The translations under genes and the position numbers were made by a program. Under the pieces are notes generated by a model, which was given only the letters and a program-made list of their open reading frames with translations, was not told the DNA's origin and did not search any database. Below, piece after piece: positions 4,458 to 12,447 of a DNA stretch of 64,000 bases; within the stretch, counting starts at the first letter, position 1; every line of letters starts with the position of its first letter. The DNA comes from Alphaproteobacteria bacterium (GTDB taxonomy: Bacteria; Pseudomonadota; Alphaproteobacteria; UBA828). The stretch is from NCBI GenBank assembly GCA_965214705.1, contig CBDCCI010000002.1:416001-480000 (forward strand), read 5' to 3'.

Positions 4458-4680
4458 ATGGCCACGATGAGGGAGAATGCCGGCGGACGGCGCCAGCGCG
4501 CGGTCATGGCGACCGATGCGGAGTGGGAACGAATCGGCCGGGCGGCTGCGGCGAGCGGCATGGACCTGTCGCGCTTCGTGATCCATCGCGCGCTGGACCG
4601 GGACCCTCTGCCGCCGGAGGTCCTGCGCCGGGCGGTACGCGAGATGCTGGTGCTGTCCATGCTGGAGATCCTCTCGAGGG
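4458..4680 (+). pseudogene. MobC-like ribbon-helix-helix protein, truncated
   Basis: AVMATDAEWERIGRAAAASGMDLSRFVIHRAL fits the RHH pattern of relaxosome accessory proteins; paralog at 23918. Confidence 0.5.
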
Positions 4681-4769
4681 CGACTCGGAGACCGGCGCTA
4701 CGGTGCCGTTCTCGCCAAACCTGAGTAGGAGACACGATATGCCCCCCAAGAACGAGACCGCGACGCCGG

Positions 4770-5197
4770 CCGAGGCGGAGGGGAGCGAAGAACAGGCGGC
4801 GGTGAAAATCGCAGCGCTCACCCGGCTGAAGTCGATCGGCGAGAACGAAGCGACGGTGCTCGTCCACGAAATCTTCTACCGCCGCTTCCGCAACCGCCGT
4901 GAGCTCGCGAGCTGGGTCGGCCTGACGCCGACCCCCTGGGCGAGCGGCGACACGCAGCGCGACCGGGGGATTGACCGCGACGGTCCGGCATGGATCCGGG
5001 CACAACTCATCCAAATGGCGTGGCGTTGGCTGCGCTATCAGCCCGAGAGCCCTCTCAGCGCGTGGTTCGAGGAGCGCACTGCGGGCTCTCGGGGACGGAT
5101 GCGCAAGGTGATGGTGGCGCTCGCCCGCAAGCTGCTGATCGCGCTCTGGCGGTTCGCCGAGACCGGTCTCGTCCCGACGGGCGCCAAGCTCGTCTGA
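4770..5197 (+). pseudogene. IS110-family transposase C-terminal fragment (copy A)
   Basis: FRNRRELASWVGLTPTPWASG, QMAWRWLRYQPES, VALARKLLIALWRF; start approximate. Confidence 0.85.
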
Positions 5198-5400: not shown

Positions 5401-6036
5401 CGGGTGCCGAGCGTGGAGGAGGAGGACCGCAAGCGGTTGCTCCGTGAGCGTCGGCGGCTGGTGAAGGAGCGGACGTCGCTGACGAACTCGATCAAGGGGC
5501 TACTCAAGCTGCAGGGGGTCTTCGACTTGGATCCTCGGGCCAAGGAGTTCGAGGAGAAGTTCGCGGACGCGGTGACCGCATACGGCTCACTGTTCCCGCC
5601 GCGGGCGCGTCAGGAGATTCTGCGGCTTGTGGAGCGGCTGTCGCTCGTGCAGCGGCAGATCACGGCAGTCGAGGCCGAGCGGGATGCGGTTGTCCGCCAG
5701 GGCGCCGCTATCCCGGCGCCGGTCGCGCCGCAGCGAAGCGAGGAGCGGGCGGCGGCCAGGATCGCGACGTTGGCCCAGCTGAAGGGGATCGGCGCGAACG
5801 ACGCGATGCTGCTTGAGCACGAGATCTTCTACCGCGACTTCGGAAACCGCCGTGAGCTTGCGAGCTGGGTCGGGTTGACGCCGACCCCATGGTCGAGCGG
5901 GGACATGCAACGCGACCAGGGGATCGACCGCGACGGTCCGGCCTGGATCCGTGCCCTCCTCGTCCAAATGGCGTGGCGCTGGTTGCGCCATCAACCCGAC
6001 AGCGCGCTTAGCAAGTGGTTCGATGAGCGCACCGCC
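5401..6036 (+). pseudogene. IS110 transposase copy B, first part (5'-truncated, interrupted by the transposon at 6037)
   Basis: RVPSVEEEDRKRLLRERRRL..KWFDERTA; the frame resumes exactly at 10595 (GARGRIRRVMIV). Confidence 0.88.
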
Positions 6037-6346
6037 TGTTGTTTCGCACGTTATTTGACGCCGAATCTCCCAGATTATTTGACGTGATCGCTGCCCTGAT
6101 TTCCCAGATTGCTCGGTCTTTTCCGGATCGAAGCGTAGGAGCTCATGGTCTCTGCGGGCGGTCCGGGGTCGCTGTCTGATTGAGGTTTGGACTGGTGCTT
6201 GAGGAGGGCTGACGAGGTGTCGCGCGGCCGTCCACACGACGAAGTGCTGCCATGGCCTGAAGCAAGCTTCCGGCCACGGACTGGCCGCTCACTTGACGTA
6301 GTATCCCGGTGGAGGCGCAGCGCCTTCCGGACCGTTGGGGAGGGGT

Positions 6347-6408
6347 GGTTCCCGACGGCGGTTCCGGCTCGAACCCCTAGGCGTTGGCGGAACCGGGCTC
6401 CGGGAACC
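6347..6408. repeat. Bipartite inverted repeat GGTTCCCG..CGGTTCCG / CGGAACCG..CGGGAACC overlapping the stop of the AAA_25 gene (ori-like)
   Basis: Seen directly; central CCTAGG. The function is inferred. Confidence 0.5.
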
Positions 6409-7414
6409 GCGGGGCCTGCGGCCGACTGCTGCCGTTGGCGGCGGCGGCCGCCGCCCGCTTGTCCGCTGCGCCTGCGACGACGCTGTAGCCGCCCTCGGCG
6501 TTGCGCGCGACGCGACCCTCCTGGACGAGCTTTTGCAAGATTACGCCGACGGTCTTGTGCCGGGTCGCGGCGCGTTCCCGGATCTGGCGTTGCGAGAGCG
6601 GCGCCCCGGCGTCGGCGAGCGCCTTGAGAACGCGGCATTCGGGAGTTTCGGGCTGAGGCGGCCCGCCGGCCGGGGGCGGCTGGCGCAGCTGGAAGGAGGG
6701 CTCCTCTCCGTCTTCCTTGAGCTCGATCTCGATGTCGTCGAGACCGCGAGCGGCGCGATGCTCGACGGTCATGAGCGTCTGCCGGTCCCGGCGGCGCAGG
6801 TATAGATTCGAATCTCCCCAGGCGTGCAGCTCACTGCTGCCCCGCAGGGCCTGCCCCGGCCTCGTGGCCCCGCTCTTGCGGGCGTGATGGACGAGCAGCA
6901 CGGCGGTCTCGAAGCGGCGTTGCAGGTCGCGCAGGAAGCCGAGGATCGGGGCGACGTCTGCGACCGTGTTCTCGTCCACGCCGTGCAGGCGGACCAGGGG
7001 GTCGAGGACCACGAGGCGCGGTGCGATGCGCTCCACGGTCTGCTGCAGGCGGCGCCGGTCGTCGAGATGGTCGAGGCGCAGTGTGGGCACGTCGATAACG
7101 GCGATGTCGAGGGTCTCGAAGCGAGCGCCTGCGGCGCGGGCGATCCCCTGCAGGCGCTTGCGCACGAGGTGGCCGGCGTCTTCTGCGGCGAACATCAGGA
7201 CCGGACCGGGCCGGGCCGGGGCGAAGTGCCGCAGGCATGGAACGCCGGCGGCGACTGCGACCGCGAGGTCCAGCGCCAGGATGGACTTGCCGCACTTGGG
7301 CTCGCCGCCGACGATGCCGACGGCTTGCTCGCCCCACAGCGTGTCCACCAGCCATTGCTGCTCGCGCGGCCGCTCCTCCAGCTCGATCGGGGTGCGGGTC
7401 GGGAAGCCGGTCAT
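6377..7414 (-). CDS. AAA_25 / RecA-like (RepA helicase-like) ATPase with C-terminal winged HTH
   Basis: WLVDTLW, GEPKCGKS Walker A, AAED, LVVLDPL, LLVHHARK, LRGSSEL motifs; ATG overlaps the upstream stop (ATGA at 7411-7414). Confidence 0.82.
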   Translation of the reverse strand: MTGFPTRTPIELEERPREQQWLVDTLWGEQAVGIVGGEPKCGKSILALDLAVAVAAGVPCLRHFAPARPGPVLMFAAEDAGHLVRKRLQGIARAAGARFETLDIAVIDVPTLRLDHLDDRRRLQQTVERIAPRLVVLDPLVRLHGVDENTVADVAPILGFLRDLQRRFETAVLLVHHARKSGATRPGQALRGSSELHAWGDSNLYLRRRDRQTLMTVEHRAARGLDDIEIELKEDGEEPSFQLRQPPPAGGPPQPETPECRVLKALADAGAPLSQRQIRERAATRHKTVGVILQKLVQEGRVARNAEGGYSVVAGAADKRAAAAAANGSSRPQAPRFPEPGSANA

Positions 7415-8214
7415 GGCCGCAACTCCTCTAGCGCGTGCTGCAGGTGCTCGGCGCTGACGGTCCTCGCCTCGTCGAGGGCGGCGGCGGAGAGCGCGTAGTG
7501 GGCGATGCGGTTGATCTGGCGCGGCAGGCCGCGCGCGCTCTGGAACAGGGCCTCGACGGCGGGCTCCTCGAAGAGCGGCAGCTCGCATCCCGCGAGCCTG
7601 AGGCGGTGCTTGATGTAGGCGTCGACCTCATCTCGGTCGAGGCCGGTGAGATGATGGCGGACGACGAGGCGCTGGCTGAGGGATTCGTGCATCGCCATGG
7701 CGAGACGCCGCCTGAGCTCGGTCAGGCCGACGAGGACGAGGCACAGGCGCTGCTCCGAATCCATGGCGAAGTTGGTGAGCAGGCGCAGGTCCTCGAGCAC
7801 GTCGTTGCGCAGGTGATGGGCCTCGTCGATGACGAGGACCGGCAGCTGCTTGGCCTCGGTGACGAGGCGGGAGATCTCGTTGCGGATTGCCTGATGGGCC
7901 GAGGCGCGCGAGCGCTCGATGGGCAGGCCGAGCTCCCACGCGATCGATTTGTACATGTCGAGCACGTTGCCCGTGGTCAGCGAGACGTAGTGGACCCGGT
8001 AGAGGCCAGGGTGGAGCTGCGCCGTCAGGTGCCGGCAGGCGGTGGTCTTGCCGGAGCCCACCTCGCCGGTGAGCAGGCCGATACCGCGCAGCTCGATGAG
8101 GTGGCCGAGCCTGGCCTCGGCCTCGCGGCGCGCGTTGGACTCGAACAGCTCGTCGGTCTCTGTCGGGGTCTCGAAGGGCAGGCGGGTGAAAGCGAAGTGG
8201 CGCTGGTACATCAC
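7411..8214 (-). CDS. ExeA-like AAA+ ATPase (TnsC/MuB/IstB-type transposition helper)
   Basis: MY..HF.F...PF N-terminus, GEVGSGKT, VLVIDEAH, SQRL, GLPRQIN; translationally coupled to the transposase. Confidence 0.88.
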   Translation of the reverse strand: MMYQRHFAFTRLPFETPTETDELFESNARREAEARLGHLIELRGIGLLTGEVGSGKTTACRHLTAQLHPGLYRVHYVSLTTGNVLDMYKSIAWELGLPIERSRASAHQAIRNEISRLVTEAKQLPVLVIDEAHHLRNDVLEDLRLLTNFAMDSEQRLCLVLVGLTELRRRLAMAMHESLSQRLVVRHHLTGLDRDEVDAYIKHRLRLAGCELPLFEEPAVEALFQSARGLPRQINRIAHYALSAAALDEARTVSAEHLQHALEELRP

Positions 8215-9539
8215 TCGTCCTCCTTCTTGTCCTTGAGCTTGTGCATGGCCAGCGGCGAGGGCGGGGGCTCGGGCGCCGGGTCCTCGGCCTCGATCTCCCT
8301 GGCCGGATAGGTGCGCCTGACGGCGGTGTTGGCGTAGGCGTCGAGAGGGGTAGCCTTGCCGGCCGGCTTGCCGTCATGGACCACGTCGAGAGGGCGCGAG
8401 GGCGGCGCGGCCGGGTCGTAGCGCAGGGTGATCTTCTCGCCGACCAGCACGGTATCGACCTCGTAGACGCAGCCGTCGAGACTGACGGTGCGATCCTTGT
8501 AGACACGGCGCTTGGCCTCGAAGAGGAACAGATCGTCGAGGTCCATGGTGGCGTCGGGATAGCGCACGCCGGCCGAGGCCAGCGCCCACTGCTCGAGCGG
8601 GGTGCGCCCCTCGTCGAGGCCACGATGCGGGCTGTTGTGATACTCCCCCTCGATCCAGGCCCAGAGGCTGCGGTTGAGCGCCTCCAGGCTGTCGACGTCA
8701 TCGCCGAGGTGGCGAAGCCAGCCGGCCCGAAGGGTGCGGAAGAAGCGCTCGATCTTACCCTTTCCCGCTGGCTGGAACGCTCTTGCGTGAATCAACGCAA
8801 CGCCGAGCCTGGCGCAGACCAGGGAGAGATGACGGGAGCGGTAGGCGCTTCCGTTGTCGACGTACAAGCGGGCCGGGAGGCCGCGCCGGATCAGCGCGTC
8901 CTTGAACACCGGCAGGAACGCCGCAGTGTTCTCCGCCATGGCGAAGGCGGCGAACGGGATGACGCGGGTGGCGTCGTCGATGAAGGCGATCAGGTAGGTC
9001 TTGCGCCGGCTGCGGCCGTGCCGGACCTTGGGTCCGTGCATGACGTCGCTCATCCACATCTCGCCGGCATGCCGGAAGGCGAAGCGGCGGCGATCCGCCC
9101 CGTCGGGCGGCTTCTTGTCGAACAGGCCCTCGCGGCTGAAGAGGCGGTGCACGGTGGACGAGGCGAGCGGGTGGTCGATACCCTCCTCGTGAGCCTTCTG
9201 GATGATGGCGCGGACCGACAATGCGTCGTTCTCGGTCTTCAGCGCGATGAGGCGCTCGGCGACCTCGGGCGGCAGCCGCCGGGGCTTCCCCCGGTCGGTA
9301 CGGGGCTTGGGGTAGAGCGCGTCGAAGCCGCCGTAGCGGTAGTCCTTGATCCAGCGCCGCATGGTCTCGGCGGCGACCCGGGTCCTGGTGGTTCCGGGGA
9401 TTGTGTAGGTCTTCTCGGCTTTGGCGCGCATCATCGCGCCGGCACCCGGTGCACCCACGGGCAGATGTACCAGATCGGCGATGACGTCGTATCGGAAGAG
9501 CGCGATCTGTTGGCGAAGGTCGTCGTCTGAGCTGTTCAT
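8211..9539 (-). CDS. DDE transposase/integrase (rve, Mu-like C-terminal domain)
   Basis: WMSDVMHG, FIDDATR, YVDNGSAY, KGKIERFFRT, YHNSPHRGL, RRVYKDRTVSLDG. Confidence 0.92.
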   Translation of the reverse strand: MNSSDDDLRQQIALFRYDVIADLVHLPVGAPGAGAMMRAKAEKTYTIPGTTRTRVAAETMRRWIKDYRYGGFDALYPKPRTDRGKPRRLPPEVAERLIALKTENDALSVRAIIQKAHEEGIDHPLASSTVHRLFSREGLFDKKPPDGADRRRFAFRHAGEMWMSDVMHGPKVRHGRSRRKTYLIAFIDDATRVIPFAAFAMAENTAAFLPVFKDALIRRGLPARLYVDNGSAYRSRHLSLVCARLGVALIHARAFQPAGKGKIERFFRTLRAGWLRHLGDDVDSLEALNRSLWAWIEGEYHNSPHRGLDEGRTPLEQWALASAGVRYPDATMDLDDLFLFEAKRRVYKDRTVSLDGCVYEVDTVLVGEKITLRYDPAAPPSRPLDVVHDGKPAGKATPLDAYANTAVRRTYPAREIEAEDPAPEPPPSPLAMHKLKDKKEDE

Positions 9540-9584
9540 GGTGCGATCCTCGTTCAGGGACTCCCTGGCCCCGGGATCGTCACG

Positions 9585-10220
9585 CTACGAACTCTCCGGC
9601 GGCGGGTCCGGCCCCGCCCGTTGTTGGAACTGCGGTTTGCGATTCCCCACGTCGATGCCGTGGGGTTGGAAGCCCAAAGGCGCGGGCAGCGTCTGGAGCT
9701 GCCCGGCGACCAGGCCGCGCAGTTCCATCAACGCGCTGTCGCTCTTCAGACGCTCGCGCACCGCGCTCATGGTGGGCGCGCAGCCCGCGAGCAGGTCGGG
9801 GATCAGGCCGATGACGCGCACAAGCGCGTTGTGCACGAGCTTCAGCCTGCGGCGGATCCAACGCACGGCGCCGGGAAGCTCGATGGCGTCCTCGTCCTCG
9901 GGGCAGCGCACCTCGTCCGCTGCCTCCTCCAGGCTGCCGGCCTCCTCCGCCACGACAACAACCGCTTCCAGCGCATCGAGCGTGCCCGGCAGCCGCGCCG
10001 CCAGACAGTCGGCCAGCAGGCCGATGGTCGTATGGCTCTCACGGCAATACCAGCGAGGAACCCTTGCGCCGGGCGGGGTCTTCCGCTCGTAGGTGCCGTG
10101 GCTTGCCACAGAACATCCGCCGTGCGGGTGATTCGGGCAGCGCTCAAGCCTTGCGTCGCGCCACGCCTCGGTCTTAACGTATTCCTCGCTGGTGAGCCCC
10201 GTTTCGTAGCGAAGCTGCAC
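9585..10220 (-). CDS. Transposon-associated putative Zn-finger/HTH protein, 211 aa
   Basis: CPNH..GC..HGTYERK..RWYC..H cluster of Cys/His residues; first gene of the transposon operon. Confidence 0.65.
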   Translation of the reverse strand: MQLRYETGLTSEEYVKTEAWRDARLERCPNHPHGGCSVASHGTYERKTPPGARVPRWYCRESHTTIGLLADCLAARLPGTLDALEAVVVVAEEAGSLEEAADEVRCPEDEDAIELPGAVRWIRRRLKLVHNALVRVIGLIPDLLAGCAPTMSAVRERLKSDSALMELRGLVAGQLQTLPAPLGFQPHGIDVGNRKPQFQQRAGPDPPPESS

Positions 10221-10309
10221 CGGCCCTGGCCCGGCGGGAGTTGAGTCCCCCGGGCCTCTCTTTGCGGTTCAGTGAGAGGCCGAGATTACGGACGCTCCCC
10301 GGCGCCGCC

Positions 10310-10443
10310 AAGCTGTGGAGCCGTGGACGCGTCCTGCGGACCGATCGGCGTCCTGCGGACCGTGTGGACAGCCCTTGGACAAGCTGGCGCTTGCCCACCG
10401 CCTGACCACACTCGCCGATCTCGCGCCCACCGCTCCACAGCTT
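10310..10443. other. 134-nt rod-like hairpin in the transposon leader
   Basis: Nested stems AAGCTGTGGAGC/GCTCCACAGCTT, GTGGACGCG/CGCGCCCAC, GATCGGCG/CGCCGATC, GTGTGGACAG/CTGACCACAC, TGGACAAGC/GCTTGCCCA; two identical bulges GTCCTGCGGAC. Confidence 0.75.
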
Positions 10444-10594
10444 CAACAGCAATGAGGATTCTGCTGACGATCAAAAAAATGCCGCAGGCAGCGTCCTTCC
10501 CGCACTCGGCCACCATCCCGGGAAATCCACCAACCAATCAAAGTGAGAAAAAAACCCGTGCTTCTATCCGGCTAGACCGGAAAACAACACCGCC

Positions 10595-10711
10595 GGAGCC
10601 CGGGGACGCATTCGTCGAGTGATGATCGTGGCAGTCGCCCGCAAGCTGCTCATCGCGCTGTGGCGGTTCTCCGAGACCGGTCTCGTGCCGACGGGCGCTA
10701 GGCTCGCCTGA
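10595..10711 (+). pseudogene. IS110 transposase copy B, C-terminal part
   Basis: GARGRIRRVMIVAVARKLLIALWRFSETGLVPTGARLA*; in frame with 5401-6036. Confidence 0.88.
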
Positions 10712-10990
10712 CGCCGGGACCGCAACTCTCTAGCCCGGCCGGACGCGGCCGACGCTGGGCCGGGTGGCGAGTGGCCGAACTTCACCAGGGCTGAAATACG
10801 CCGAGTCGTAGATGGGCCCCGCCTCCGGAACGCTGCAGCCCGCAGCAAACGGGATTGAGGGACGGGTCCGGTGCATCGCCACCGGTCACCGCCCGGATAA
10901 AAGGTGGGTGTGCGCTCAAGCGCGACCGATAGCGAGCGTTCCGACCTGGCAACGCGCTGATCCGGTCAACCACGAGGGAGGAATGGCATG
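10712..10990 (+). ncRNA. Putative bridge/seekRNA region of IS110 copy B (terminus lost)
   Basis: Same scaffold as copy A with different variable segments (AACTTCACC, AGTCGTA). Confidence 0.65.
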
Positions 10991-10994
10991 CAGT

Positions 10995-11700
10995 GAAGCT
11001 CCGCTTCCATCCCCATCTGCACGTGGTCGTCCCCAACGCGGGCTTCGACGTCGCGAACGGCGAGTGGAAGACCGGGAGCGGCACCTTCCTTGCCCCCGTC
11101 AAGGTCCTCGCCAGCCTGTTCCGCCGCCGCTTCCTCGAAGACCTCGCCCGCGCCCATGGGCGGGGGGAGCTGGAGTTCCACGGCACCGTCGCCCATCTCG
11201 CCAACCCCGGCGAGTTCCACGCCGCCCTCGCCGCCGCCCGCGGCAGGGACTGGGTAGTCTACGCCAAGCGGCCCTTCCGCGGGCCGGCCCAGGTGTTCCG
11301 ATACCTCGCCCGCTACACCCACCGGATCGCCATCGGTGACAGCCGCATCACAGGCTTCGATGGCGAGACCGTCTCCTTCCGGCACCGGAAGCCGAAGCAG
11401 GCGGGGCAGAAGAAGCCGCGCTACGGCACCATGACTGTCAGCGCCGACGAGTTCATCCGCCGCTTCCTGCTCCATGTCCTTCCCGACGGGATGCACCGCA
11501 TCCGTCACTTCGGCATCCTCTCCAACGGATGCCGGACCACGACGTTGGCCAGCGCGCGCGAGGCTTTCGGCTCTATCGGCTGCCCCGACGATGAGTGTGT
11601 GGACGACGATGCGCCCGAAGGCCAACGTGAGCGTGACGAAGCAGCGGAGCCCGCGGCCGCTCCCGTCGCCTGTCCCGATTGCGGAGCGCCGCTGCGCCTC
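10995..11700 (+). pseudogene. IS91-like (HUH/Y2) transposase, 5'-truncated and interrupted by IS21
   Basis: FHPHLHVVVP, YLARYTHRIAI, FIRRFLLHVLP, CPDCG; near-identical protein to 50040..51290; resumes at 16157. Confidence 0.88.
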
Positions 11701-11800
11701 GCCCAGTCTCACCAATGTAGCCGGTGAATCTCACCCGAAGTAGCCGGCGAATCTCATCCAAAGTAGCCACCCGATCTCAGCAAAGTAGCCACCCCGGAGC
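11701..11800. repeat. IS21 end repeats (4 x ~22-23 bp)
   Basis: TCTCA-N4/5-(A/T)GTAGCC repeated in tandem. Confidence 0.85.
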
Positions 11801-12039: not shown

Positions 12040-12447
12040 TCATGCCTTTTTCCCTGCGGCAGCGTCGTCGATACGCATGGACGTGCCGTGCAGCTCGATG
12101 CGGATGGCACCATGGACGAGGCGGTCGAGGATGGCGTCGGCGACCGTGGGATCGTTGAGCTGGCGGTGCCAATCGGCCACCGGCAACTGGCTGGTGACGA
12201 TCACCGAGCGCCGGCCGAAGCGGTCGTCGAGGATTTCGAGGAGATCGCGCGCGCGAGCCGCATCGATGGGCGCGATGCCCCAGTCGTCGAGGATCAGCAC
12301 CTCGATGCGGGCGAGGTCGCGGTAGAGCTTCGGGATCGTGCCCTCGCCATGGGCGATGCGCAGCTCGGTGAGCAGCCTGGGCACGCGGTGGTACTGGGCG
12401 ATGTGGCCCTCGAGGCACGCCTTGTGGCCAAGGGCACAGGAGATCCA
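12040..12447 (-). pseudogene. istB: istB ATPase, 3' part
   Basis: ISCALGHKAC, LILDDWG, LLEILDDR, TSQLP..W, ADAILDRL, IELHGTSMR. Confidence 0.9.

What the first reader, a model, noticed from the sequence alone, without database searches (positions are those of the whole stretch)
6037..10589. Precisely bounded four-gene transposon: Zn-finger protein, Mu-like DDE, ExeA/TnsC-like ATPase and AAA_25 helicase-like protein
Seen: TGTTGTTT..AAACAACA ends, 5-bp TSD CCGCC, exact restoration of the host IS110 ORF, and three translationally coupled genes plus an upstream Cys/His-rich gene. Established: TG..CA ends, a 5-bp TSD and a DDE + AAA+ pair typify the Mu/Tn7/Tn552/IS21 group. Unusual: the coupled fourth gene is a RecA-fold AAA_25 ATPase with a winged HTH, like RepA/primase-helicase proteins of plasmids and satellites, with no resolvase or TniQ recognisable. 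Inference: a little-characterised transposon class in which the extra ATPase supports replication or target selection and the Zn-finger protein acts as an adaptor.
Basis: partly seen in the sequence, partly recalled or inferred. Interest (0 to 1): 0.78.

Follow-up and report, generated by a model that had tools for sequence, protein, structure and literature searches.

The report
Transposon carrying its own helicase-like gene
This is a real, precisely bounded jumping gene with a Mu-like transposase and helper ATPase, and its odd fourth gene, a helicase-like ATPase, recurs just after the helper ATPase gene in three transposon families, so it looks like a dedicated but dispensable add-on.

Summary
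Window 6037-10589 is a 4553-bp transposon with TGTTGTTT/AAACAACA ends and a 5-bp CCGCC duplication, inserted in an IS110-type gene. Removing it restores a gap-free match to 9 IS110 paralogues.

Near-identical copies are multi-copy in other genomes. One MAG holds at least 19 copies that are 99.85-100% identical.

The core is three genes:
- a Cys/His protein that proves to be a divergent DUF6431 member (hhalign 96%);
- an IS481-like DDE transposase with a Mu C-terminal domain;
- an ExeA/MuB-like AAA_22 ATPase.

This three-gene cassette also occurs in Geobacillus, Acidithiobacillus and Streptomyces plasmids.

The fourth gene resembles the RSF1010 RepA helicase and carries a winged helix. It is dispensable: three-gene relatives are multi-copy in genomes with no homologue. 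It is not a random passenger either. In 72 of 72 informative metagenome loci chosen only by similarity to it, it sits directly behind a transposition ATPase gene. Those ATPase genes belong to three transposon families, IS21 included. A Toprim primase-like gene sometimes joins or replaces it.

A role in the replication step of transposition is inferred, not shown.

The parts
5404..6036 (+). 5' part of the interrupted IS110-type transposase ORF (the target gene)
   Evidence: Pfam Transposase_20, E 3.2e-14. It continues in frame at 10595 once the element and one CCGCC are removed.
6032..6036 (.). Left copy of the 5-bp target-site duplication CCGCC
6037..6376 (.). Element end next to the AAA_25 gene: terminal TGTTGTTTC plus non-coding DNA holding two repeated ATTATTTGACG sites
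   Evidence: Read directly. Ten related element types conserve the terminal TGTTG, mostly as TGTTGTTTC, and repeated GATTTCC-type sites about 27 and 60 nt from the end. Contigs of runs X1, X4 and X17 start exactly at 6037.
6377..7414 (-). Fourth gene, 345 aa: RepA/DnaB-like RecA-fold ATPase (AAA_25) with a C-terminal MarR-like winged helix
   Evidence: Pfam AAA_25 E 4.6e-37; MarR_2 E 2.3e-5, which is below its cut-off. RSF1010 RepA 1g8y at profile E 2.8e-12, with GKS, AED, LVVLD, HHARK and RGSS aligned. PHROGs primase/helicase and DnaB-like families. The start at 7414 fits the MxGFPTR start of 25 aligned homologues.
7411..8214 (-). ExeA/MuB/TniB-like AAA+ transposition ATPase, 267 aa
   Evidence: Pfam AAA_22 E 5e-27; TniB 21.5 bits against a cut-off of 22.4. 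PHROG 296 'DNA transposition protein' E 4e-30. PADLOC TnsC V-K E 1.2e-4.
8211..9539 (-). DDE transposase, 442 aa: IS481-like core with a Mu transposase C-terminal domain
   Evidence: Pfam HTH_32, rve and Mu-transpos_C (24.8 bits, cut-off 21.7). NCBIfam IS481 200.8 bits, below its cut-off of 224. PHROG 310 transposase E 4.7e-48.
9585..10220 (-). Cys/His-rich first gene, 211 aa: a divergent DUF6431-type zinc-ribbon protein
   Evidence: No Pfam or NCBIfam hit. Invariant C28, H31, C36, H41 and C59 in 29 homologues. Nearest Atlas clusters carry DUF6431. hhalign against PGAP-named DUF6431 proteins: 96.1%, E 3.4e-9.
10221..10589 (.). Upstream non-coding region and the other element end (ends ...GAAAACAACA); holds a 22-nt inverted repeat at 10310-10331 and 10422-10443
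   Evidence: No Rfam match. Contigs end at 10590/10591 in runs X17 and X9.
10590..10594 (.). Right copy of the target-site duplication CCGCC
10595..10712 (+). 3' part of the interrupted IS110-type ORF
   Evidence: The frame is restored across the junction, and the join aligns gap-free to 9 paralogues.

Best explanation
Window 6037-10589 is an intact, probably active transposon. Its core is a DUF6431-like zinc-ribbon protein, a DDE transposase (IS481-like core with a MuA-type C-terminal domain) and an ExeA/MuB/TniB-like AAA+ ATPase.

Inferred from the known families: the transposase binds the TGTTGTTTC termini and the repeated subterminal sites, and the AAA+ protein delivers target DNA as MuB, TnsC and IstB do. 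Shown here: integration makes a staggered cut that is usually 5 bp (4-7 bp seen), at sites with only a weak N-C-N-G-S preference. This copy landed in an IS110 transposase gene.

The fourth gene encodes an RSF1010-RepA/DnaB-type RecA-fold ATPase with a winged helix. It is an accessory module, not core machinery: it has been lost and gained repeatedly, and three-gene elements multiply without it. It is nevertheless specialised for this kind of transposon. Its clade was found only immediately downstream of the AAA+ gene of three different DDE plus AAA+ families (this family, a distant 'family 2', and IS21), and it has moved between them. A DUF3991-Toprim primase-like gene sometimes joins it or replaces it.

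My inferred mechanism, untested: the module supplies an element-encoded helicase, and sometimes a primase, for the DNA synthesis that transposition of such elements needs. That synthesis could be copy-out of a circle or replication and repair at the strand-transfer joint. The transposon's AAA+ protein would then play a loader-like part, as DnaC does for DnaB.
For: SHOWN
- Boundaries, duplication and restoration of the target gene.
- Domains.
- Recent activity of the family. Copies within a genome are 99.85-100% identical: 19, 7, 22, 4 and 9 loci compared in five genomes. 49 of 57 insertions have a 4-7 bp duplication.
- The first gene is DUF6431-like.
- The same three-gene cassette is annotated in three plasmids of three phyla. 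A preprint passage reports it as 15 copies in a Clostridium.
- The fourth gene resembles RepA, with the helicase motifs aligned.
- It is under purifying selection like the core genes. dN/dS between the A and B copies: AAA_25 0.29, DDE 0.28, AAA_22 0.22.

FOURTH GENE IS DISPENSABLE
- Three-gene elements of 3427 and 3411 bp are present as 4 and 9 identical or near-identical copies.
- 0 of 4 genomes holding three-gene elements gave any AAA_25 match at E <= 1e-5. The same query matches the window's own genome.
- Among 23 distinct family-1 transposases whose fourth slot can be read, 16 have AAA_25, 1 has Toprim and 6 have nothing. The tree needs at least 4 changes of that state.

FOURTH GENE IS DEDICATED TO THESE TRANSPOSONS
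- 80 metagenome loci were picked only by AAA_25 similarity. 78 hold at least 250 aa of it.
- All 72 with enough upstream sequence have a transposition AAA+ gene within 400 nt upstream on the same strand: 62 family 2, 7 IstB of IS21, 3 family-1-like. The other 6 lie at contig edges. The IS21 identity was confirmed with Pfam.
- The AAA_25 tree needs at least 6 partner switches, 4 of them forced by well-supported branches.
- There was no tblastn match in 72,556 plasmids.
- A Toprim gene occupies the same slot in L063, L071, L079, L114 and L116.

INFERRED
- The replication role. It rests on established knowledge, recalled rather than from any call, that IstB is a DnaC/DnaA-clade AAA+ and that RepA/DnaB are hexameric replicative helicases.
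- It also rests on a review passage listing IS21 among families with circular, presumably copy-out-paste-in intermediates.
Against: - No assay or read evidence shows helicase activity, a circular form or replicative transposition. The four public runs I laid were assembled contigs only, and they showed no end-to-end joint.
- The gene is dispensable. Copy numbers with it (19, 7, 22) and without it (4, 9) do not prove a benefit.
- The AAA+ partners are very different: 29% identity between families 1 and 2, and IstB belongs to another Pfam family. The AAA_25 ATPase domain stays 81-96% identical within its sponge-associated clade. That fits poorly with a specific protein-protein interface.
- The structure models were poor: pLDDT 44 and 54.
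- The link between the family-1 zinc protein and the family-2 and IS21-linked Cys-rich ORFs is by eye only. hhalign found nothing against the family-2 one.
- The metagenome sample is the best 80 of 576 relatives, all 49% identical or more, so more distant members may live elsewhere.
- Two loci (L116, L117) hold a truncated AAA_25 with no ATPase gene directly upstream.
Confidence: 0.6

Rival explanations
1. The AAA_25 gene is a selfish hitchhiker or cargo gene, for example a maintenance, defence or anti-defence function. It rides in the cargo slot between the ATPase gene and the element end and has no part in transposition.
For: It is dispensable and repeatedly lost. It lies at the end-proximal position where such elements usually carry cargo (recalled knowledge). 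Three-gene and four-gene elements have the same ends, and both show 4-7 bp duplications.
Against: In 72 of 72 informative loci it lies directly behind a transposition AAA+ gene, across three families. Its start often overlaps the upstream stop: ATGA in the window and overlapping ORF coordinates in L142. There was no PADLOC hit and no plasmid homologue. The other gene seen in the slot is also a replication-type gene, Toprim. No other cargo appeared in that slot in the loci examined.
Confidence: 0.2
2. The AAA_25/winged-helix protein is a regulator or target selector. It binds the element ends or particular target structures through its winged helix and tunes where or how often the element inserts, functionally like TnsE/TniQ-type selectors or a repressor.
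For: It has a C-terminal winged helix (pLDDT about 80-86 there). That region is more variable (44-90% identity) than the ATPase domain (81-96%), as would be expected if it reads element-specific DNA. No TniQ is present.
Against: Insertion sites of four-gene and three-gene elements both look near-random, with only a weak N-C-N-G-S preference. The protein's family is helicases, with all helicase motifs kept. The same protein clade serves elements with unrelated ends (family 2, IS21).
Confidence: 0.12
3. The module lets an excised circular copy replicate for a while as a small episome. This would be a plasmid-like stage with RepA-like helicase plus or minus primase, raising the chance of reinsertion or transfer.
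For: The RepA of RSF1010 is a plasmid replication helicase. The helicase plus Toprim pair in L079 and L114 looks like a plasmid or ICE replication module. A review passage lists IS21 among families with circular intermediates.
Against: No circle junction was seen, though only assembled contigs were available. No initiator or origin is recognisable. There was no homologue in 72,556 plasmids.
Confidence: 0.08

Closest known systems
Tn552, Tn5053/Tn402, Tn7 and phage Mu (transposons with a MuA/TnsB-type DDE transposase and an AAA+ regulator)
   Same: The transposase has rve plus a Mu C-terminal domain, and an adjacent AAA+ ATPase is translationally coupled to it. The ends are TG...CA with repeated subterminal sites. 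The duplication is mostly 5 bp. The weak N-C-N-G-S target pattern recalls Mu's N-Y-S-R-N, which is recalled knowledge.
   Different: No resolvase, TniQ/TnsD or TnsA is present. The duplication length is not fixed, ranging 4-7 bp. The transposase core scores best as IS481-like. The first gene is a DUF6431 zinc protein. The fourth gene is a RepA-like helicase homologue.
IS481 family insertion sequences
   Same: This is the best NCBIfam match of the transposase: 200.8 bits over 263 of 284 profile positions. PGAP names the Geobacillus relative an 'IS481 family transposase'.
   Different: The score is below the family cut-off of 224. The element has three or four genes rather than one. It carries an extra Mu C-terminal domain and an AAA+ partner. 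A passage of Kojima 2023 (PMC10045372) gives mostly 6-bp or about 15-bp duplications for IS481, whereas here they are mostly 5 bp.
IS21 (IstA transposase plus IstB AAA+)
   Same: Both have a two-protein DDE plus AAA+ logic. Some IS21-type elements carry the same AAA_25 gene directly behind istB, with a Cys-rich ORF in front of istA.
   Different: The window's ATPase has no IstB_IS21 hit, and its transposase scores only 39.8 bits against the IS21 cut-off of 160.
DUF6431 - DDE - AAA ATPase cassette (annotated but, in the papers searched, not studied)
   Same: Same gene order and homologous proteins. The transposases are 37-40% identical. The zinc protein matches at hhalign 96%. A preprint passage reports the cassette as a 15-copy repeat in Clostridium sp. 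JS66.
   Different: Those cassettes have no fourth gene. The window's zinc protein has swapped part of the CxxC pairs for His, and it misses the Pfam model.
RSF1010 RepA hexameric helicase (PDB 1g8y) and DnaB-family helicases
   Same: Residues 32-196 align, with the Walker A GKS, AED, Walker B LVVLD, HHARK and RGSS motifs matched.
   Different: The window protein has an added C-terminal winged helix. It is encoded in a transposon, not a plasmid replicon. Its activity and oligomeric state are untested.
IEE, the IS excision enhancer (a PrimPol-helicase protein acting on copy-out-paste-in ISs)
   Same: It is a precedent for a primase/helicase-type protein that acts on IS transposition intermediates. 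I read the abstract and passages of Chandler et al., bioRxiv 10.1101/2023.06.07.543989.
   Different: By that abstract IEE affects many IS families rather than being described as a gene of one IS. No homology to IEE was tested here.

Membership tests
Mu/Tn7/Tn552/Tn5053-type DDE + AAA+ transposons | DDE (rve) transposase with a Mu transposase C-terminal domain | tested here: met
   rve E 1.1e-10; Mu-transpos_C 24.8 bits against a cut-off of 21.7. PHROG 310 E 4.7e-48.
Mu/Tn7/Tn552/Tn5053-type DDE + AAA+ transposons | Adjacent AAA+ regulator of the MuB/TnsC/TniB kind | tested here: met
   AAA_22 E 5e-27. PHROG 296 'DNA transposition protein' E 4e-30. TniB itself scores 21.5 bits, just under its cut-off of 22.4.
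Mu/Tn7/Tn552/Tn5053-type DDE + AAA+ transposons | TG...CA termini and a 5-bp target duplication | tested here: met
   Termini. The duplication is 5 bp in this copy and in 29 of 57 insertions of relatives, but 4 bp in 15, 6-7 bp in 5 and absent in 8.
Tn552 / Tn5053 | Serine resolvase and a res site (cointegrate resolution); TniQ in Tn5053 | tested here: not met
   None of the four proteins gives a resolvase or TniQ hit in Pfam or NCBIfam. No further ORF of the element was tested.
IS481 family | Transposase reaches the NCBIfam IS481 equivalog cut-off; single-gene IS | tested here: not met
   200.8 bits against a cut-off of 224. The element has four genes.
IS21 family | IstA-type transposase and IstB_IS21 ATPase | tested here: not met
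   NF033546 scores 39.8 bits against a cut-off of 160. PF01695 gives no hit on the ATPase.
DUF6431 - DDE - AAA ATPase cassette | First gene is a DUF6431 zinc protein | tested here: inconclusive
   The Pfam model itself is not reached: no hit, and 13 bits at E 0.58 on a sister copy. A profile-profile comparison with three PGAP-named DUF6431 proteins gives 96.1%, E 3.4e-9 over 74 columns. The nearest Atlas clusters carry DUF6431 in 29-57% of their members.
DUF6431 - DDE - AAA ATPase cassette | Gene order: zinc protein, DDE transposase, AAA ATPase, all on one strand | tested here: met
   Window. Geobacillus, Acidithiobacillus (its ATPase gene is not in the incomplete PLSDB table) and Streptomyces plasmids.
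RepA/DnaB-family hexameric helicases | RecA-fold core with the helicase motifs H1, H1a, H2, H3 and H4 | tested here: met
   Alignment to 1g8y over residues 32-196 has GKS, AED, LVVLD, HHARK and RGSS matched. Profile E 2.8e-12. The motif names are recalled.
RepA/DnaB-family hexameric helicases | Hexamer formation and DNA unwinding | not testable with these tools
   The AlphaFold model was poor, with mean pLDDT 53.8. No oligomer was folded.

The most novel reading that the evidence does not exclude
A set of bacterial DDE plus AAA+ transposons carries its own replisome parts: this family, a widespread 'family 2', and some IS21 elements. The parts are a RepA/DnaB-like helicase with a DNA-binding winged helix and sometimes a Toprim primase. 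In this reading the transposon's MuB/IstB-type AAA+ protein loads them at the transposition joint, or at the copy-out fork, much as DnaC loads DnaB. The element would then prime and drive its own replicative step without the host's restart primosome. That independence would explain why the module moves as a unit between unrelated transposons and boosts them in some hosts while being dispensable in others.
Probability: 0.3. Interest if true: 0.8.

Novelty: new variant of a known kind. Interest (0 to 1): 0.62.

Why it matters
DDE plus AAA+ transposons (Mu, Tn7, Tn552, IS21) are the models for how transposition is coupled to target choice and to replication. They are also the basis of programmable insertion tools.

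How the replication or repair step is started is well worked out only for Mu, where host restart proteins are recruited (recalled knowledge). A helicase-like gene, and sometimes a primase-like gene, that travels between three such transposon families and always sits behind the AAA+ gene would give a direct handle on that step. It would also tie in with the old observation that IstB resembles the helicase loader DnaC.

Separately, the three-gene DUF6431-DDE-AAA cassette is common in genomes of several phyla. It is annotated piecemeal and causes rearrangements: a swapped-flank pair, and a deletion described in the preprint passage. Defining its ends and duplication makes it easy to annotate.

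Tried and rejected
STRUCTURE
- AlphaFold2 of the zinc protein (mean pLDDT 44.1) and of the AAA_25 protein (53.8) were too poor for fold searches.
- Complex prediction of the AAA_22 ATPase with the AAA_25 protein returned 'no answer' (score 0.00). I draw nothing from it.

SEQUENCE COMPARISONS THAT FOUND NOTHING
- hhalign of the zinc-protein profile against the family-2 Cys-rich ORF (probability 0.1). The shared C..C..H..Y.RK look is by eye only.
- Pfam DUF6431 against the own genome: 13 bits on a sister copy.
- Rfam on 5800-10800: no match.
- PADLOC: no defence family for the zinc protein or the AAA_25 protein.
- tblastn of AAA_25 against PLSDB plasmids: no match.

EVEN SAMPLES OF GENOMES (too sparse to use for synteny statistics)
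- AAA_25 at E <= 1e-20 in 3 of 301 genomes of the class, own genome included.
- The family-2 transposase in 2 of 401 genomes of the phylum. One of these, L191, has zinc gene, DDE and ATPase followed by 460 nt to the contig end with no AAA_25. The other, L192, is cut too short to tell.

PUBLIC RUNS
- All four runs laid were assembled contigs. No end-to-end (circle or tandem) joint appeared, and contigs could not have shown a rare one.
- RNA run X17 has a few contigs on the element. That does not show transcription, because DNA carry-over was not excluded.

OTHER
- The repeat finder on the element listed only weak internal repeats, plus the 22-nt inverted repeat noted under parts.
- Solo ends elsewhere in the own genome have no transposition genes within 9 kb in 5 of 7 cases. 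The other two have AAA_22 fragments. They were not pursued.
- Target bias towards mobile DNA. In the own genome the flanks of copies A, B1, B2 and C1 are multi-copy sequence. That is 4 of 6 copies in one repeat-rich genome, and it can reflect survival of harmless insertions rather than targeting. I make no claim.

PAPERS
- Seven answered searches found no description of this element family or of a helicase gene linked to IS21-type or Mu-type transposons. 'Not in print' rests on these searches only.
- ISfinder and TnCentral could not be consulted.
- The supplementary Excel file of the JS66 preprint was closed, and it may describe the three-gene cassette further.
- Of the papers, I saw only search listings, one outline with its abstract, and passages.

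TREES
- The tree is the quick IQ-TREE stand-in, because the careful search did not finish in time. The tree is also 'quick', and its three plasmid outgroups sit on very long branches.
- Rows with an internal stop, and AAA_25 hits under 250 aa (DDE hits under 400 aa), were dropped before the trees and counts.

Full report
WHAT IS THERE

The sequence shows TGTTGTTT at 6037 and AAACAACA ending at 10589, with CCGCC on both sides. Four genes lie on the minus strand:
- a 211-aa Cys/His protein at 9585-10220, with no Pfam or NCBIfam hit;
- a 442-aa DDE transposase at 8211-9539, with HTH_32, rve and Mu-transpos_C, and an NCBIfam IS481 score of 200.8 bits, below the cut-off of 224;
- a 267-aa AAA_22 ATPase at 7411-8214;
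- a 345-aa AAA_25 ATPase with a MarR-like winged helix at 6377-7414.

The last three genes overlap stop-to-start (GTGA, ATGA).

The interrupted host gene is IS110-type (Transposase_20). Removing the element and one CCGCC gives an open frame. The join aligns gap-free across the junction to 9 paralogues in the same genome. A public-run contig bridges 6029 to 10588, which is an uninterrupted IS110 variant. Contigs of three runs break exactly at 6037.

IT IS A MOBILE FAMILY, RECENTLY ACTIVE

The window's genome (7.9 Mb, 3 contigs) holds this copy (type A) and two other types:
- three 4394-bp four-gene copies, about 81% identical in DNA (type B);
- two three-gene copies of 3852 and 3677 bp that lack the AAA_25 gene (type C);
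- several solo ends.

Four of the six copies have a 5-bp duplication, one has 4 bp and one has none.

A scan of species-representative genomes with the zinc-protein alignment found 261 relatives, and 80 loci were kept. One alphaproteobacterial MAG has at least 19 copies of a 4621-bp element whose proteins are 96-99% identical to the window's. Two others have 7 and 22 copies of 4387- and 4380-bp four-gene elements. A Pseudomonadales and a gammaproteobacterial MAG have 4 and 9 or more copies of 3427- and 3411-bp three-gene elements. Copies within a genome are 99.85-100% identical.

Across 57 insertions in these five genomes, the duplication is 5 bp in 29, 4 bp in 15, 6 bp in 3 and 7 bp in 2; 8 have none. 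Two of those 8 are a pair with swapped flanks, which is an inversion between copies. With shuffled flank pairs 88% have none.

The 29 five-base sites give only a weak N-C-N-G-S pattern.

All types share TGTTG, mostly TGTTGTTTC, at both termini. They also share repeated GATTTCC-type sites about 27 and 60 nt inside. Several transposase-binding sites per end is the usual layout in Mu, Tn7 and Tn552 (recalled).

THE CORE IS A KNOWN-BY-ANNOTATION, UNSTUDIED THREE-GENE CASSETTE

The zinc protein has 1301 homologues at E <= 0.001 among the 3028 candidates scored, with invariant C28, H31, C36, H41 and C59. The Atlas placed it next to clusters carrying DUF6431.

The closest plasmid relatives of the transposase are 37-40% identical. 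In Geobacillus, Acidithiobacillus and Streptomyces plasmids the transposase sits directly behind a gene that NCBI names 'DUF6431 domain-containing protein'. In Geobacillus and Streptomyces it also sits in front of an 'AAA family ATPase'. A profile-profile comparison of my zinc-protein alignment with those three proteins gives 96.1%, E 3.4e-9.

A 2026 preprint passage describes the same three-gene cassette as a 15-copy repeat that mediated a deletion in a Clostridium. An R. gnavus gene table lists the DDE and DUF6431 pair. I found no paper that treats it as a transposon family; the searches are listed under Tried and rejected.

So the zinc protein is a standard core gene, not an adaptor peculiar to this element. 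What it does is unknown. I assume it binds DNA or is an assembly factor.

THE FOURTH GENE IS DISPENSABLE

Its profile matches the RSF1010 RepA helicase (1g8y, E 2.8e-12), with GKS, AED, LVVLD, HHARK and RGSS aligned. It also matches phage primase-helicase and DnaB-like families.

Three-gene elements multiply without it. None of the four genomes that hold three-gene elements gave any match to it at E <= 1e-5, so it is not supplied in trans either.

Of 23 distinct family-1 transposases with a readable fourth slot, 16 have AAA_25, 1 has a Toprim gene and 6 have nothing. One of the 6, L070, has a truncated ATPase gene. Two more could not be read. The transposase tree needs at least 4 gains or losses, and the window genome's own three-gene type C nests among four-gene elements.

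Between types A and B the gene has diverged in step with the core and under similar constraint. dN/dS is 0.29, against 0.28 for the DDE and 0.22 for AAA_22; dS is 0.43-0.51 for these three genes.

THE FOURTH GENE IS ALSO NOT A RANDOM PASSENGER

I ran the reciprocal test and picked loci only by similarity to AAA_25 in metagenome contigs. That gave 576 relatives, of which the best 80 were kept, 49-92% identical.
- 78 hold at least 250 aa of the gene.
- All 72 with enough upstream sequence have a transposition AAA+ gene within 400 nt upstream on the same strand. The other 6 lie at contig edges.
- Two further loci hold a truncated copy with no ATPase gene directly upstream.

The partners fall into three families.
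- Three loci have family-1-like ATPases.
- 62 loci belong to a distant 'family 2'. Against the window's proteins its DDE is 26% identical and its AAA_22 29%. It has the same four-gene plan, with an upstream Cys-rich, HTH-bearing ORF.
- 7 loci are IS21-type, with IstA (Mu-transpos_C_2) and IstB_IS21, again with a Cys-rich ORF in front.

On the AAA_25 tree, the 13 family-1-linked sequences and 3 family-2-linked sequences form one strongly supported clade, set among family-2-linked sequences. The IS21-linked ones nest inside a family-2 clade. At least 6 partner switches are needed, 4 of them forced by well-supported branches (a quick tree).

The simplest reading is that the gene is at home in family 2 and has been handed to the window's family and to IS21 elements, always into the same position.

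A DUF3991-Toprim primase-like gene uses the same slot:
- behind AAA_25 in two family-2 elements (L079, L114);
- instead of AAA_25 behind a family-1-like ATPase (L071);
- behind istB (L063, L116).

One database protein fuses AAA_22 and AAA_25 in 597 aa (P0124). No homologue was found in 72,556 plasmids.

MECHANISM

Shown: the boundaries, the duplication, the domain content, recent multiplication of the family, dispensability of the fourth gene, and its exclusive linkage to DDE plus AAA+ transposons in the sample examined.

Inferred from family knowledge: the transposase and AAA+ protein work as in Mu, Tn552 and IS21.

Inferred by me: the helicase-like, and sometimes primase-like, module serves the DNA synthesis step of transposition. 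Two points favour this. Both alternative occupants of the slot are replication proteins. And IstB-type ATPases are kin of the helicase loader DnaC (recalled). A review passage lists IS21 among families with circular, presumably copy-out-paste-in intermediates, a route that needs replication through the element.

Against it: there is no direct evidence, the gene is dispensable, and the AAA+ partners are very different, which makes a specific loader-helicase interface doubtful. The complex prediction gave no answer. The rivals are hitchhiker cargo, regulator or target selector, and an episomal stage; they are scored in their own section.

COMPARISON AND NOVELTY

The element works like the Mu, Tn552 and IS21 group. 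It fails membership of Tn552/Tn5053 because it has no resolvase or TniQ. It fails IS481 because it scores below the cut-off and has several genes. It fails IS21 because it has no IstA or IstB signature. It belongs to the DUF6431-DDE-AAA cassette.

Two things are new as far as my searches reach. One is the definition of that cassette as a transposon with TGTTGTTTC ends and a 4-7 bp duplication. The other is the recurrent, exchangeable helicase/primase-type module behind the AAA+ gene in three transposon families.

Noticed in passing
window 4523-5197, 10993-11727 and 12040-12384: The element sits in a patch of mobile-DNA debris. A second IS110-type C-terminal fragment (Transposase_20) lies just upstream. 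By eye only, an ORF downstream looks like part of an IS91-type transposase, and another looks like an IstB-like ATPase fragment. The last two were not tested.
   Followed up: partly
L024 and L028 (one MAG contig): Two inverted copies carry each other's flanking 5-mers: CGGGG/CCCTC and CCCTC/CGGGG. This is the footprint of an inversion by recombination between copies.
   Followed up: no
L030 and L032: Two copies of the 4621-bp element measure 6082 bp between their ends. An extra 1461 bp lies near the AAA_25-side end, and one of the two has a perfect CGCCG duplication. It is probably a nested insertion.
   Followed up: no
protein P0124: A 597-aa database protein carries both AAA_22 and AAA_25 domains, and its AAA_25 part is 92% identical to the window's. 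It is either a fusion of the two coupled genes or a frameshift in assembly.
   Followed up: no
L071:12102-15646, L063:2372-5986, L079:9782-14719, L114:1696-6649: A DUF3991-Toprim primase-like gene occupies the slot behind the transposition ATPase. It replaces AAA_25 in a family-1-like element and in an IS21-type element. It follows AAA_25 in two family-2 elements.
   Followed up: partly
own genome C1:453541-457392 and C1:473238-476914: The two three-gene copies lie inverted about 16 kb apart. One lacks a duplication and is 175 bp shorter. Its outer flank is repeated 100% at C1:449217, which suggests a segmental duplication or rearrangement around them.
   Followed up: no
window 10310-10331 and 10422-10443: A 22-nt inverted repeat, 91% complementary with 90 nt between the arms, lies in the non-coding region upstream of the zinc-protein gene. 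It has no Rfam match. It could be an operator or an RNA structure.
   Followed up: partly
L064, L065/L081 and L082 (record titles): Four-gene elements 76-85% identical in the zinc protein occur in MAGs titled Dehalococcoidia, Acidimicrobiales and Acidobacteria, as well as in Alphaproteobacteria. This is either transfer across phyla or binning errors in metagenomes of one habitat.
   Followed up: no
own genome C2:663182-671757: A solo AAA_25-side end lies 5.2 kb from a broken AAA_22 gene, whose fragments are at two places. The element there has been disrupted by further insertions.
   Followed up: no
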